Below, one piece after another: positions 3,038 through 33,722 of a stretch of DNA of 64,000 nucleotides. Within the stretch, counting starts at the first letter, position 1, and every line of letters starts with the position of its first letter. Made by a program: the position numbers and the translations under genes. Origin of the DNA: Escherichia coli (GTDB lineage: Bacteria > Pseudomonadota > Gammaproteobacteria > Enterobacterales > Enterobacteriaceae); the NCBI RefSeq assembly GCF_013122565.1, contig NZ_CP053258.1; one strand, given 5' to 3'. The notes beneath the pieces were generated by a model that was not told where the DNA came from, ran no database searches, and saw only the letters and a program-made list of their open reading frames with translations.

Positions 3038-3994
3038 GTGTCAGCTATGAAAAATGTTCTGGTCACCGTCCCCAGCTTTTCAGCACGCTGTGTTTCCGCC
3101 AGCAAGTTGCTAAGAGAGAATAATTTTAACCTTATTATTAAGAATAATGTGGAGCATCTGCTTAAATCAGAATCCACTGCATTACGAGAATCTATTTGCG
3201 CGGTCATCGCCGGAAAAGATTGTTACCAGGCGGACACGCTATCATTGCTGCCTGGTGTGAGAATAATATCGAGATTCGGGACGGGGATAGATAATATTGA
3301 TCTTCGTGCAGCACAACAATCCGGTATTGTAGTCAATAATGCGGTTGGGATTAATTCAAATGCTGTCGCGGAATTTATCATTGGACTTATCTTCGCGAGC
3401 ATGAGAAATATTCCTGGCAGCTATCATGCGATGCAAAATGGCTACTGGGGTGAGTCGCATGGCTATGAATTACAAGGCAAACGGATTGGCCTGGTTGGCT
3501 ACGGCAATATAGGTAAAACCCTGGCAAAAAGGTTATCCGGTTTTGATGTTGAGCTTTTAGCTTATGACAAACAACCCGATTATCAGGTTGCTGACAAAGT
3601 TGGAGTTCAGTTTGTATCAATTGAAGATATCTTTATGCAGTCGCATGTCATCATTGTTCTTTTGCCTTTTTCTCCTGAGCTGGAGAACTTCATTAGTCAT
3701 AAATATTTGTCGATGATGCGCAATGGTGCTCTAATCATCAATGCCGCAAGGGGAAAGTTGCTGGATGAGGGCGCTTTACTACAGGTGATTGAAGAACGAA
3801 ATGTGTTTGCGGCGCTGGATGTGTTTAGCTCTGAACCGTTGGCGCAATTTAGCCCACTGCTACATGCCAAAAATATCATTACAACGCCGCATATTGCGGC
3901 CGCCACCGTTGAGTCATACCAGCAAACCGGTACACACGTTGCCCAGTCGATAATTGATTACTTCGCAGGAAGGGAGATAAAAAACGTGTTGTGA
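3038..3994 (+). CDS. D-isomer-specific 2-hydroxyacid dehydrogenase, NAD-binding
   Basis: 318 aa. Rossmann GxGxxG (GLVGYGNIGKTLAKRL) and the TPHIAAAT catalytic-region motif. Track start is GTG at 3038; an ATG at 3047 is an alternative. Confidence 0.8.
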   Translation: MSAMKNVLVTVPSFSARCVSASKLLRENNFNLIIKNNVEHLLKSESTALRESICAVIAGKDCYQADTLSLLPGVRIISRFGTGIDNIDLRAAQQSGIVVNNAVGINSNAVAEFIIGLIFASMRNIPGSYHAMQNGYWGESHGYELQGKRIGLVGYGNIGKTLAKRLSGFDVELLAYDKQPDYQVADKVGVQFVSIEDIFMQSHVIIVLLPFSPELENFISHKYLSMMRNGALIINAARGKLLDEGALLQVIEERNVFAALDVFSSEPLAQFSPLLHAKNIITTPHIAAATVESYQQTGTHVAQSIIDYFAGREIKNVL

Positions 3995-4020
3995 GTTCAG
4001 CGAACGAAGTTTTTAAATAC

Positions 4021-4055
4021 AAAAAAACCGCAATTTGTGGAACACATTGCGGTTT
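4021..4055 (-). terminator. Rho-independent terminator downstream of tRNA-fMet
   Basis: Inverted repeat aaaccgcaat / attgcggttt; on the minus strand it is followed by a 7-T run. Lies just past the tRNA 3' end. Confidence 0.6.
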
Positions 4056-4072
4056 ATCAGCATTCTAAGTAT

Positions 4073-4149
<77 letters not shown>

Positions 4150-4357: not shown

Positions 4358-5455
4358 ATGAAAGGACGTTGGGTAAAGTACCTTCTTATGGGCACGGTTG
4401 TGGCAATGCTTGCCGCCTGCTCTTCCAAACCAACCGATCGCGGACAGCAATATAAAGACGGGAAATTTACCCAGCCTTTCTCTCTGGTGAACCAGCCAGA
4501 TGCCGTTGGCGCGCCGATTAACGCCGGTGATTTTGCTGAGCAAATTAACCATATCCGTAATTCGTCACCGCGTCTGTATGGCAACCAGAGTAATGTTTAT
4601 AACGCGGTGCAAGAGTGGCTGCGCGCAGGCGGTGATACCCGCAATATGCGCCAGTTCGGCATTGATGCCTGGCAGATGGAAGGTGCCGACAACTATGGTA
4701 ACGTGCAGTTTACAGGCTATTACACGCCGGTAATTCAGGCGCGCCATACCCGCCAGGGCGAGTTCCAGTATCCGATTTACCGTATGCCGCCAAAACGTGG
4801 TCGTCTGCCGTCTCGTGCGGAGATCTACGCGGGGGCATTGAGCGATAAATACATCCTCGCTTACAGCAACTCTCTGATGGATAATTTCATTATGGATGTG
4901 CAGGGTAGTGGGTATATCGACTTTGGTGATGGCAGCCCCCTTAACTTTTTCAGCTATGCAGGGAAAAACGGTCATGCCTATCGCAGCATTGGTAAGGTGC
5001 TGATCGACCGTGGCGAAGTGAAAAAAGAAGATATGTCGATGCAAGCGATTCGTCACTGGGGCGAAACACACAGTGAAGCCGAGGTTCGCGAGCTGCTGGA
5101 ACAGAACCCGTCTTTTGTCTTCTTTAAACCGCAATCTTTTGCACCGGTGAAAGGGGCAAGTGCGGTGCCGCTGGTTGGTCGTGCTTCTGTTGCCTCTGAT
5201 CGTTCCATTATTCCGCCAGGTACTACCTTGCTGGCAGAAGTGCCGTTACTGGATAATAACGGCAAATTTAATGGTCAGTACGAACTGCGTCTGATGGTGG
5301 CGCTGGATGTCGGTGGCGCAATCAAAGGCCAACACTTCGATATCTATCAAGGGATCGGGCCGGAAGCCGGACACCGTGCAGGTTGGTACAACCACTATGG
5401 ACGGGTTTGGGTACTGAAAACGGCTCCGGGCGCAGGTAACGTCTTTAGCGGCTGA
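4358..5455 (+). CDS. mltA: Membrane-bound lytic murein transglycosylase A
   Basis: Internal ATG of ORF 4037..5455 with SD aagaagaga. Lipoprotein signal MKGRWVKYLLMGTVVAMLAACSS. 365 aa as in K-12. The longer track ORF overlaps the tRNA and is rejected. Confidence 0.93.
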   Translation: MKGRWVKYLLMGTVVAMLAACSSKPTDRGQQYKDGKFTQPFSLVNQPDAVGAPINAGDFAEQINHIRNSSPRLYGNQSNVYNAVQEWLRAGGDTRNMRQFGIDAWQMEGADNYGNVQFTGYYTPVIQARHTRQGEFQYPIYRMPPKRGRLPSRAEIYAGALSDKYILAYSNSLMDNFIMDVQGSGYIDFGDGSPLNFFSYAGKNGHAYRSIGKVLIDRGEVKKEDMSMQAIRHWGETHSEAEVRELLEQNPSFVFFKPQSFAPVKGASAVPLVGRASVASDRSIIPPGTTLLAEVPLLDNNGKFNGQYELRLMVALDVGGAIKGQHFDIYQGIGPEAGHRAGWYNHYGRVWVLKTAPGAGNVFSG

Positions 5456-5542
5456 TGTGATATTCTGTATGCCGTTTTGACGGATATGACAGGGTGAGGG
5501 GTAACCTTACATCCTGATTATTGACTAAGTGCGTGTTGTTCA

Positions 5543-5641
5543 TGCCGGATGCGGCGTGAACGCCTTATCCGGCCTACAAATCATGCAAATCCAAAATATT
5601 GCAGGAGTTATGTAGGCCTGATAAGCGTAGCGCATCAGGCA
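5543..5641. repeat. REP/BIME palindromic elements (two REP units)
   Basis: gccggatgcggcgtgaacgccttatccggcctaca and tgtaggcctgataagcgtagcgcatcaggca, typical enterobacterial REP consensus. Confidence 0.8.
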
Positions 5642-5652
5642 ATTATGCGTTT

Positions 5653-5680
5653 AGGGTGAGGGATAACCTCACCCTTTTTA
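5653..5680 (+). terminator. Terminator-like hairpin plus T-run
   Basis: agggtgagg-gataa-cctcaccct followed by ttttt, ending 14 nt before the tcdA start. Confidence 0.5.
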
Positions 5681-5693
5681 ATTCAGAGGTGCT

Positions 5694-6500
5694 ATGTCTG
5701 TTGTAATTAGTGATGCCTGGCGTCAGCGTTTTGGCGGCACTGCGCGTCTGTATGGTGAAAAAGCGTTGCAACTGTTTGCTGACGCGCATATTTGTGTGGT
5801 CGGTATTGGCGGTGTCGGTTCCTGGGCGGCGGAAGCGCTGGCGCGCACGGGGATTGGCGCAATCACGCTTATCGATATGGATGATGTGTGCGTCACCAAT
5901 ACCAATCGGCAAATTCATGCCCTGCGCGATAACGTTGGGCTGGCAAAAGCGGAAGTTATGGCGGAGCGTATTCGCCAGATTAACCCGGAGTGCCGTGTAA
6001 CGGTGGTGGATGATTTCGTGACGCCGGATAACGTAGCGCAGTATATGAGCGTGGGTTATTCGTACGTGATTGATGCCATTGATAGTGTACGGCCCAAAGC
6101 GGCGCTGATTGCTTATTGTCGGCGCAATAAAATCCCACTGGTCACAACCGGTGGCGCGGGTGGGCAGATTGATCCGACGCAGATTCAGGTTACCGATCTG
6201 GCGAAAACGATTCAGGACCCGCTGGCGGCGAAGTTGCGTGAGCGCCTGAAAAGCGATTTTGGCATAGTGAAAAACAGTAAAGGTAAGCTCGGCGTGGATT
6301 GCGTGTTCTCTACCGAAGCATTGGTGTACCCGCAGTCAGACGGTACGGTGTGTGCTATGAAAGCCACGGCAGAAGGGCCGAAGCGGATGGATTGTGCATC
6401 TGGATTTGGCGCGGCGACGATGGTGACCGCCACCTTTGGTTTTGTTGCGGTTTCTCATGCGCTGAAGAAGATGATGGCGAAAGCGGCGCGTCAGGGGTAA
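5694..6500 (+). CDS. tcdA: tRNA threonylcarbamoyladenosine dehydratase (E1-like, CsdL)
   Basis: 268 aa. ThiF/MoeB-type fold with GIGGVGSW nucleotide-binding motif. Synteny with csdA/csdE. Confidence 0.93.
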   Translation: MSVVISDAWRQRFGGTARLYGEKALQLFADAHICVVGIGGVGSWAAEALARTGIGAITLIDMDDVCVTNTNRQIHALRDNVGLAKAEVMAERIRQINPECRVTVVDDFVTPDNVAQYMSVGYSYVIDAIDSVRPKAALIAYCRRNKIPLVTTGGAGGQIDPTQIQVTDLAKTIQDPLAAKLRERLKSDFGIVKNSKGKLGVDCVFSTEALVYPQSDGTVCAMKATAEGPKRMDCASGFGAATMVTATFGFVAVSHALKKMMAKAARQG

Positions 6501-6506
6501 ACAATC

Positions 6507-6542
6507 AGGTCGGATGCGACGCGAACGTCTTATCCGACCTGG
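6507..6542. repeat. REP-like palindrome between convergent tcdA and csdE
   Basis: aggtcggatgcgacgcgaacgtcttatccgacctgg; probable bidirectional terminator or REP. Confidence 0.6.
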
Positions 6543-33491: not shown

Positions 33492-33612
33492 GACAGAATA
33501 CCAAAACCGGCTCTATCTGGAGCCGGTTTGAGACTGATGCTAAACGCAAAATAGCCTGTTGTGCTATGTATCAGGTCTACATCATTTTTTAATTCATTGA
33601 ATTTAATTGGTT

Positions 33613-33650
33613 TTGTAGGCCGGATAAGGCGTTAACGCCGCATCCGGCAT
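33613..33650. repeat. REP element between gudD and barA
   Basis: ttgtaggccggataaggcgttaacgccgcatccggcat. Confidence 0.7.
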
Positions 33651-33722
33651 AAACACAGGCACTTTGTCACCAATCTGAAACCAGCGTCATAAAAAGCCGA
33701 TTGCTACTCGACAAGACGTCCG

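What the first reader, a model, noticed from the sequence alone, without database searches (positions are those of the whole stretch)
5653..5693. Terminator-like hairpin ends only 14 nt before the tcdA start codon
A GC-rich hairpin with a T-run sits between the REP cluster and the tcdA SD. An intrinsic terminator this close to a start codon would block read-through from mltA and implies that the tcdA promoter lies within or downstream of the hairpin. Alternatively the structure is regulatory and sequesters or exposes the SD gaggtg.
Basis: seen in the sequence. Interest (0 to 1): 0.25.

Follow-up and report, generated by a model that had tools for sequence, protein, structure and literature searches.

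The report
Leaky terminator inside the tcdA leader
The hairpin is a real, experimentally mapped Rho-independent terminator that ends mltA transcripts and sits inside the 5' leader of tcdA, whose promoter lies upstream of it, so this is an ordinary, already charted piece of E. coli gene punctuation.

Summary
Window 5653-5675 is a perfect 9-bp stem with a 5-nt loop (-17.6 kcal/mol), followed by T5. The T-run ends 14 nt before the tcdA ATG, and the SD lies outside the stem. The segment is present in 5425 of 5426 complete E. coli genomes.

In K-12, published Term-seq places an RNA 3' end in the T-run. It is scored Rho-independent with intrinsic-terminator score 12.2. So the terminator reading holds.

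The inference that the tcdA promoter lies within or downstream of the hairpin does not hold. SMRT-Cappable-seq maps the tcdA start at K-12 2946062, which is window 5474. That is 19 nt after the mltA stop and upstream of the hairpin. An extended -10 (TGaTATTCT, 5458-5466) sits there, and this motif follows the mltA stop in 30 of 78 enterobacterial species. tcdA is therefore expressed by read-through of a terminator in its own leader.

About half of the species carry a hairpin plus T-run 16-28 nt before the ATG, in at least four unrelated sequence families.

In this window, as in about 52% of E. coli, a 142-bp BIME-1 was inserted into the descending arm of the ancestral hairpin with a 20-bp duplication. 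This lengthens the leader from 58 to 220 nt.

Interest is low.

The parts
4358..5455 (+). mltA coding sequence (365 aa); its stop codon is 5453-5455
   Evidence: ORF list. Pfam MltA and 3D domains. RefSeq annotation of orthologous loci.
5458..5466 (+). Extended -10 promoter element TGaTATTCT of tcdA, starting 3 nt after the mltA stop
   Evidence: It lies 7 nt upstream of the mapped TSS. TGnTAnnnT occurs within 16 nt of the mltA stop in 30 of 78 species, against 0.7% of control windows, almost always at offset +3.
5474..5474 (+). tcdA transcription start site, equivalent to K-12 2946062(-)
   Evidence: SMRT-Cappable-seq Supplementary Data 2: operon b2812, TSS 2946062, reverse. The coordinate was mapped through the gap-free K-12/window alignment.
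5491..5510 (+). Upstream copy of the 20-bp duplication (5' arm, loop and 6 nt of the 3' arm of the ancestral hairpin). It folds imperfectly with the first bases of the insert and has no T-run.
   Evidence: Direct repeat D1, 90% identical, spacing 162. Long versus short allele alignment. Fold -15.4 kcal/mol. No sense-strand Term-seq 3' end in K-12.
5511..5652 (+). 142-bp inserted BIME-1 (RIB/RIP type): Y REP 5543-5577, L linker about 5578-5610, inverted Z1 REP 5611-5641, with non-REP flanks
   Evidence: Absent from short-allele E. coli. Homologous over 5516-5652 to the fepA-entD BIME-1. Rfam ES036 hit at 5577-5619. Inverted repeats. BIME-1 definition.
5653..5675 (+). Terminator hairpin: 9-bp stem AGGGTGAGG/CCTCACCCT, loop GATAA
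   Evidence: In the 20-sequence alignment 98.9% of cells are paired and all variation is wobble-compatible.
5675..5683 (+). U-rich tract TTTTTAATT. The position equivalent to the mapped K-12 RNA 3' end is 5681.
   Evidence: Term-seq 3' end at 2945855(-), read count 32337, in LB at OD 0.4.
5686..5691 (+). tcdA Shine-Dalgarno GAGGTG, outside the hairpin
   Evidence: Sequence. GAGGT is invariant in the 20-sequence alignment.
5694..6500 (+). tcdA coding sequence (268 aa, ThiF family; tRNA ct6A37 synthase)
   Evidence: ORF list. Pfam ThiF. RefSeq product name.

Best explanation
The hairpin plus U-tract is a Rho-independent terminator with two jobs.

1. Polymerases arriving from mltA stop in the U-tract. 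This defines and protects the mltA 3' end.
2. The tcdA promoter is an extended -10 placed directly after the mltA stop codon, so tcdA transcripts start upstream of the same hairpin. Some of them end there, giving a leader RNA of about 208 nt in K-12-type alleles. The rest read through and carry the hairpin 10 nt upstream of a free Shine-Dalgarno.

The terminator thus insulates tcdA from mltA transcription and sets a low, apparently constitutive tcdA level.

Shown:
- the structure
- its conservation
- the 3' end
- Rho independence
- the upstream TSS
- the conserved -10

Inferred:
- that the 3' end arises by termination rather than trimming
- that read-through is partial for both classes of transcript
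- that no regulator is involved

In this window a BIME-1 was inserted into the descending arm of the ancestral hairpin with a 20-bp duplication. An intact hairpin, T-run, SD and ATG module was kept next to tcdA.
For: Structure: 9-bp perfect stem, -17.6 kcal/mol, followed by T5.

K-12 Term-seq:
- The 3' end at 2945855(-) lies 6 nt past the stem.
- It is listed as 'upstream ORF, -13, tcdA'.
- Its Rho score is 0.55, called 'No' for Rho dependence.
- Its intrinsic terminator score is 12.2, where the threshold is 3.

K-12 SMRT-Cappable-seq: TSS 2946062(-) for a unit that fully covers tcdA alone, and TSS 2947208 for mltA alone.

Promoter: TGaTATTCT lies 7 nt upstream of that TSS. The motif is found at the same offset from the mltA stop in 30 of 78 species, against 0.7% of control windows.

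Read-through: DirectRNA-seq coverage in the 800-nt windows is 107 upstream and 65 downstream. The downstream gene is therefore still transcribed.

Conservation:
- The hairpin is universal in E. coli.
- It is conserved in Salmonella, Enterobacter, Leclercia and Phytobacter, with only wobble-compatible changes.
- 38 of 78 species have a hairpin plus T-run 16-28 nt before the ATG, against 8.7% of shuffles. These belong to at least four unrelated hairpin families.

Ancestry: short-allele E. coli and outgroups carry a single hairpin in a 75-77 nt spacer.
Against: - The Term-seq 3' end is listed only for LB at OD 0.4. It is not listed for LB at OD 2.0 or for M63.
- The site is not among the SMRT-Cappable-seq high-confidence termination sites.
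- No double compensatory changes support the stem. Four of the nine pairs never vary.
- Termination efficiency is unknown. A 3' end at a stable hairpin can also arise by exonuclease trimming.
- About half of the species lack a hairpin plus T-run, and some have a 10-19 nt spacer. The terminator is therefore not essential for the gene pair.
- All transcript data come from K-12, not from the strain of this window. The two differ by 2 bases in the hairpin-to-ATG stretch.
Confidence: 0.8

Rival explanations
1. The hairpin is an efficient insulator, and tcdA is transcribed from a promoter that overlaps the hairpin or lies downstream of it, for example one using TTTAAT at 5677-5682 as its -10.
For: TTTAAT matches TATAAT at 5 of 6 positions. 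mltA and tcdA are listed as separate units.
Against: - The mapped TSS is at 5474, upstream of the hairpin.
- A start from TTTAAT would leave a leader of about 4-5 nt without the conserved SD.
- The hexamer is TTTACA in many genera that keep the hairpin.
- The scan found no promoter-like site.
Confidence: 0.04
2. The hairpin is a translational control element that hides or exposes the tcdA ribosome-binding site.
For: The hairpin ends 10 nt before the SD. ACCTC (5666-5670) is complementary to GAGGT of the SD. In the centroid fold of the short-allele leader, leader bases pair weakly with the start-codon region.
Against: - The SD is outside the stem in every minimum-energy fold.
- The 9-bp stem is far more stable than any SD pairing.
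- Rfam finds no riboswitch or thermometer.
- Unrelated hairpins fill the same place in other genera. That fits a generic terminator, not a specific operator.
Confidence: 0.05
3. The mapped 3' end is a processing product. Transcription continues, and 3' exonucleases stop at the stable hairpin, which mainly acts as an RNA stabiliser.
For: - Adams et al. attribute most 3' ends in 5' UTRs and ORFs to processing.
- The neighbouring REPs are known stabilisers.
- The antisense-strand 3' ends at K-12 2946049/50 abut the other hairpin copy, which has no U-tract. This shows that trimming-type ends occur here.
Against: - A U5 tract directly follows the stem, and the end lies inside it.
- The intrinsic terminator score is 12.2.
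- The upstream hairpin copy, which lacks a T-run, has no sense-strand 3' end.
- T-runs accompany the unrelated hairpins in other genera.
Confidence: 0.12
4. The hairpin is a regulated attenuator. An unknown factor or alternative fold switches read-through into tcdA.
For: - The terminator lies between the TSS and the start codon.
- The 3' end was detected in only one of three growth conditions.
- In the long allele the upstream 5' arm copy (5491-5499) is fully complementary to the terminator 3' arm (I5).
Against: - There is no leader peptide and no conserved antiterminator.
- The short ancestral leader has no sequence able to compete with the stem.
- The duplicated arm exists in only about half of E. 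coli.
- There is no Rfam match.
Confidence: 0.08

Closest known systems
Intrinsic terminators in 5' UTRs mapped by Term-seq in E. coli (for example the ispU/uppS leader terminator, Adams et al. 2021, PMC7815308)
   Same: A G+C-rich stem followed by a U-tract just upstream of an ORF. It is Rho-independent and has a high Chen-model score. This very site is a row in the same supplementary table.
   Different: Here the same hairpin is also the terminator of the upstream gene mltA. No regulation or function of the leader fragment has been examined.
Read-through (partial) intercistronic terminators such as prs-dauA and dapA-bamC (Yan et al. 2018, PMC6131387)
   Same: A terminator between co-oriented genes, where the downstream gene's level depends on the read-through fraction.
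   Different: tcdA has its own promoter, placed between the upstream stop codon and the terminator. No mltA-tcdA bicistronic unit is listed.
BIME-1 / RIB / RIP elements (Y REP, L linker with IHF site, Z1 REP)
   Same: Same composition. The inserted BIME-1 is 88-89% identical to the fepA-entD BIME-1. It lies at the 3' end of a transcription unit and shows presence/absence polymorphism among strains.
   Different: - It is flanked by a 20-bp duplication of a terminator hairpin, which 7 other BIME-1 loci do not show.
- It lacks the outer right-hand motif (CATCAGTCT) shared by three full-length copies.
- It is tandemly amplified at least 5 times in one Escherichia lineage.
Classical leader attenuators (trp, his, pyrBI)
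   Same: A terminator between the promoter and the first codon.
   Different: There is no leader peptide, no alternative antiterminator helix and no known signal.

Membership tests
Rho-independent (intrinsic) terminator | G+C-rich stem-loop of about 5-14 bp with a short loop | tested here: met
   9 bp, 6 of them G-C, 5-nt loop, -17.6 kcal/mol, z = -4.4.
Rho-independent (intrinsic) terminator | U-rich tract immediately 3' of the stem | tested here: met
   TTTTTAATT at 5675-5683. T5 or more is invariant in the 20-sequence alignment.
Rho-independent (intrinsic) terminator | RNA 3' ends map within the U-tract in vivo | tested here: met
   K-12 Term-seq 3' end at 2945855(-), which is window 5681, in LB at OD 0.4 only. 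These are data from the K-12 orthologue, not from this strain.
Rho-independent (intrinsic) terminator | Independence of Rho | tested here: met
   Rho score 0.55, called 'No' after bicyclomycin treatment.
Rho-independent (intrinsic) terminator | Transcript release by purified RNA polymerase in vitro | not testable with these tools
   Needs a single-round transcription assay.
Regulated leader attenuator / riboswitch | Terminator located between the TSS and the start codon | tested here: met
   TSS at 5474 and hairpin at 5653-5675.
Regulated leader attenuator / riboswitch | Mutually exclusive antiterminator structure, leader peptide or ligand-binding domain | tested here: not met
   No Rfam family. 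Folds keep the terminator. The ancestral 58-nt leader has no competing complement.
SD-sequestering translational element | Shine-Dalgarno base-paired within the conserved structure | tested here: not met
   The SD at 5686-5691 lies 10 nt outside the stem.
BIME-1 (RIB/RIP) | One Y and one Z1 palindromic unit in inverse orientation separated by the long L linker | tested here: met
   Inverted repeats I2 and I3. Rfam ES036 hit on the linker. Full-length alignment to the fepA-entD BIME-1. Family definition. The assignment of the REPs to types Y and Z1 rests on recalled consensus sequences.
BIME-1 (RIB/RIP) | IHF binding to the L linker | not testable with these tools
   Needs a binding assay.
BIME-1 (RIB/RIP) | Single copy per locus | tested here: met
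   One copy in the window. One Escherichia sp. contig, however, has at least 5 tandem copies.

The most novel reading that the evidence does not exclude
The transcript from the tcdA start (5474) to the terminator (5681) may be an abundant RNA in its own right rather than attenuation waste. It is about 208 nt long and highly structured, and it contains a complete BIME-1. It could act as a REP-derived, nucleoid-associated or sponge-type RNA. Its length is set by a 162-bp module that expands and contracts (0, 1, 2 or at least 5 copies) across Escherichia.

The K-12 Term-seq count at this end is 32337, against about 1700 at the csdE terminator. That is compatible with accumulation of the RNA, but nothing tests whether it has a function.
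Probability: 0.1. Interest if true: 0.45.

Novelty: already known. Interest (0 to 1): 0.17.

Why it matters
It settles how tcdA, the tRNA ct6A37 synthase gene, is transcribed. tcdA has its own extended -10 promoter directly behind the mltA stop codon, and it is expressed by read-through of a terminator that also ends mltA. This is routine operon punctuation and needs no new mechanism.

There is one modest extra. The site is a natural allelic series, with a leader of 58 nt, 220 nt or at least 868 nt depending on the number of BIME-1 copies. That series could be used to measure what a BIME-1/IHF site does to a downstream gene.

Tried and rejected
Literature sources
- The Thomason 2015 dRNA-seq paper and the Bachellier 1997 Genetics paper are not held.
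- For Dar and Sorek 2018 and the 3'-UTR valve paper, no supplements are held.
- The Cappable-seq 2016 and TERMITe supplements have no entry for this site.
- A search for 'ES036' returned only unrelated papers, and one for mltA with tcdA returned nothing useful.

Counting the hairpin across genomes
- A megablast with the window's own 78 nt undercounted it (888 genomes), because SNPs break the 28-nt seed.
- I repeated the search with the K-12 sequence in sensitive mode and found it in 5425 of 5426 genomes.

Covariation
- There are no double compensatory changes, so the stem is supported only by wobble-compatible changes and by analogous hairpins in other genera.

Is the 20-bp duplication a general footprint of BIME-1 insertion?
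- I rejected this idea. The closest BIME-1 (fepA-entD) is fixed in E. coli, so no empty site exists.
- I found 7 other BIME-1-like loci in 350 kb of K-12 plus the window. None has flanking direct repeats above shuffles; the best is 5-7 nt.

Other ideas considered
- CsrA binding to the GGA in the loop: dropped, because the loop sequence is not conserved.
- Bidirectional terminator: rejected, because the opposite strand has no T-run.

Full report
**The observation**

- AGGGTGAGG (5653-5661) pairs perfectly with CCTCACCCT (5667-5675) around the loop GATAA.
- A run of five T (5675-5679) is followed by AATT.
- The Shine-Dalgarno GAGGTG is at 5686-5691 and the tcdA ATG at 5694.
- So 14 nt separate the end of the T-run from the start codon.

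The gene identities are secure.
- Upstream is mltA (4358-5455; Pfam MltA and 3D domains).
- Downstream is tcdA (5694-6500; ThiF family). Both follow.
- RefSeq gives the same names at orthologous loci.

The consensus scan finds this as the only terminator-like site in 1.8 kb. That scan is not above chance by itself, because shuffles give a mean of 1.6 sites. Other tests show the hairpin is real.
- The palindrome pattern is expected 0.02 times per 64 kb and occurs once.
- The hairpin folds at -17.6 kcal/mol with z = -4.4.
- It survives in folds of the entire intergenic region.

**Conservation**

The 78-nt stretch from the hairpin into tcdA is present in 5425 of 5426 complete E. coli genomes at about 95% identity or more.

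I collected mltA-tcdA loci from 80 enterobacterial species. The gene order is conserved, and the spacer ranges from 10 to 238 nt.

The same GGGTGAGG...CCTCACCC hairpin with T5 or more, about 18 nt before the ATG, occurs in Escherichia, Salmonella, Phytobacter, Enterobacter, Leclercia, Huaxiibacter and Pseudenterobacter. In that 20-sequence alignment:
- 98.9% of cells pair.
- Five of the nine pairs vary on one side only, always wobble-compatibly.
- No pair shows a double compensatory change, so covariation proper is absent.

Other genera carry unrelated hairpins with T-runs at the same place. Kosakonia, Cedecea/Buttiauxella and Mangrovibacter each have their own, all near -17 to -19 kcal/mol.

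Overall, 38 of 78 species have a hairpin plus T-run in the spacer, against 8.7% of shuffled spacers. In 37 of those 38 the stem ends 16-28 nt before the ATG. The remaining species have a REP only, a hairpin without a T-run, or a 10-19 nt spacer with no room for either.

So a terminator here is favoured and has been reinvented several times, but it is not obligatory.

**Experimental data for the K-12 orthologue**

K-12 carries the same allele with no indels relative to the window. Coordinates therefore convert exactly: K-12 position = 2945842 + 5694 - window position.

Term-seq (Adams et al. 2021, PMC7815308) lists an RNA 3' end at 2945855(-). This is window 5681, the second A of UUUUUAA, 6 nt past the stem.
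- Its read count is 32337 in LB at OD 0.4.
- It is absent from the lists for LB at OD 2.0 and for M63.
- In Supplementary file 3 the site is 'upstream ORF, -13, tcdA'.
- It is scored not Rho-dependent (score 0.55), with an intrinsic terminator score of 12.2, where values above 3 predict intrinsic termination.

DirectRNA-seq coverage in the 800-nt windows is 107 upstream and 65 downstream without bicyclomycin.
- I inferred the column order from a clear Rho site in the same file, because arithmetic alone cannot fix it.
- Transcription therefore continues into tcdA at an appreciable level.

**Where tcdA transcription starts**

SMRT-Cappable-seq (Yan et al. 2018, PMC6131387) captures 5'-triphosphate full-length transcripts. 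It lists a unit containing b2812 (tcdA) alone with TSS 2946062, reverse strand. It lists b2813 (mltA) alone with TSS 2947208.

Position 2946062 is window 5474.
- It is a G, 19 nt after the mltA stop and 179 nt upstream of the hairpin.
- Seven nucleotides upstream of it lies TGaTATTCT (5458-5466), an extended -10.

TGnTAnnnT occurs within 16 nt after the mltA stop in 30 of 78 species, against 0.7% of control windows. It almost always starts 3 nt after the stop. It occurs in genera with the GGGTGAGG hairpin, with other hairpins, and with no hairpin.

Adams et al. retained the 3' end in their 5'-UTR table. Under their filter this requires a dRNA-seq TSS between the mltA stop and the 3' end, or within 200 nt upstream of it. 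That is indirect agreement with the SMRT-Cappable-seq start.

The promoter is therefore upstream of the hairpin, not within or after it. The T-run's TTTAAT is not conserved as a -10, being TTTACA elsewhere. The scan sees no sigma-70-like site in the region.

**Mechanism**

The best-supported reading is a constitutive, leaky intrinsic terminator.
- It ends mltA transcripts.
- It lies in the tcdA leader, and tcdA is expressed by read-through.
- The SD sits 10 nt beyond the stem and is not sequestered.
- I found no antiterminator, leader peptide or Rfam element.

Three things remain inferred: that the 3' end is made by termination rather than exonuclease trimming, how efficient termination is, and that there is no regulator.

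**The BIME-1 insertion**

E. coli is dimorphic at this site. The spacer is 238 nt in about 52% of genomes. The unique left flank of the insert is present in 2838 of 5426 genomes (consistent counts). In the rest the spacer is 76 nt.

The short form has one hairpin. It matches the 75-77 nt spacers of Phytobacter and Enterobacter, so it is ancestral.

The long form carries 162 extra bases.
- 142 bp are a BIME-1 (Y REP, L linker, inverted Z1 REP, plus non-REP flanks).
- This element aligns end to end with the fepA-entD BIME-1.
- The other 20 bp are a duplication of AGGGTGAGGGRTAACCTCRC, at 5491-5510 and 5653-5672.

The insertion point is inside the descending arm of the ancestral hairpin. The duplication leaves a complete hairpin, T-run and SD next to tcdA, and a crippled copy without a T-run upstream. 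That upstream copy has no sense-strand 3' end in K-12. The leader grows from 58 to 220 nt.

BIME-1 presence/absence polymorphism is already known.

E. albertii shares the insertion. One Escherichia sp. contig has at least five tandem 162-bp units. Four E. coli genomes have two places for the flank. Both alleles occur on both flanking mltA haplotypes. The module therefore expands, contracts or recombines repeatedly.

I tested whether a flanking duplication is a general footprint of BIME-1 insertion. Seven other BIME-1-like loci, found in 350 kb of K-12 and in the window, show none above chance. The mltA-tcdA copy also lacks the outer right-hand motif shared by three full-length copies. The duplication is therefore a local accident, not a family hallmark, and its origin is unexplained.

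**Verdict**

- The terminator reading is supported by published mapping data.
- The inferences about the promoter position and SD sequestration are not supported.
- The element is an ordinary intrinsic terminator or leader attenuator. It already appears as a row in published genome-wide tables.

Noticed in passing
window 5491-5510 and 5653-5672: A 20-bp direct duplication of most of the terminator hairpin flanks a 142-bp BIME-1. Short-allele E. coli (about 48%) have a single hairpin and a 76-nt spacer. Seven other BIME-1 loci show no such flanking repeat, so its origin is unexplained.
   Followed up: yes
L009 1-790 (Escherichia sp. MOD1-EC7003, NZ_PTRE01000045.1): At least five tandem copies of the 162-bp unit (BIME-1 plus the truncated hairpin) lie upstream of tcdA and run into the contig end. 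BIME-1 is described as single-copy per locus.
   Followed up: partly
window 5458-5466: An extended -10 motif, TGnTAnnnT, starts 3 nt after the mltA stop. It is conserved at that offset in 30 of 78 enterobacterial species and matches the mapped K-12 tcdA TSS.
   Followed up: yes
window 5486-5487, minus strand (K-12 2946049/2946050, + strand): Published Term-seq shows antisense RNA 3' ends in LB at OD 2.0 and in M63. They lie just past the complement of the upstream truncated hairpin, which has no U-tract. The source of this antisense transcript was not traced.
   Followed up: no
window 5577-5619: The Rfam family ES036 (CssrF sRNA) matches above its gathering score. The match is simply the L linker of BIME-1, so the family appears to model a repeat element rather than a specific sRNA gene.
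   Followed up: partly
window 33542-33675, minus strand: A second, diverged BIME-1-like element, 78% identical over the full length to the mltA-tcdA insert. It shares the end motifs GATTGxTGAC and GCGTTT+CATCAGTCT with the fepA-entD and dppB-dppA copies.
   Followed up: partly
L091 24363-24384 (K-12 mtlA-mtlD spacer): This is the only other GGGTGAGG-loop-CCTCACCC palindrome in 414 kb searched. It lies next to CCCTCTCC...GGAGAGGG hairpins and a REP. Several Enterobacter and Leclercia tcdA leaders also pair the two hairpin types. This hints that the terminator arms derive from a boxC-like repeat family.
   Followed up: no
window 3038-4149: A 318-aa D-2-hydroxyacid dehydrogenase ORF (3038-3994, +) and a single tRNA-Met(CAT) (4073-4149, -) lie next to mltA. 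K-12 has the three genes metZ, metW and metV at this position.
   Followed up: no
window 6459-6539: A sub-threshold Rfam naRNA4 (REP-type) match lies in the convergent tcdA/csdE spacer, so a further REP follows tcdA.
   Followed up: no
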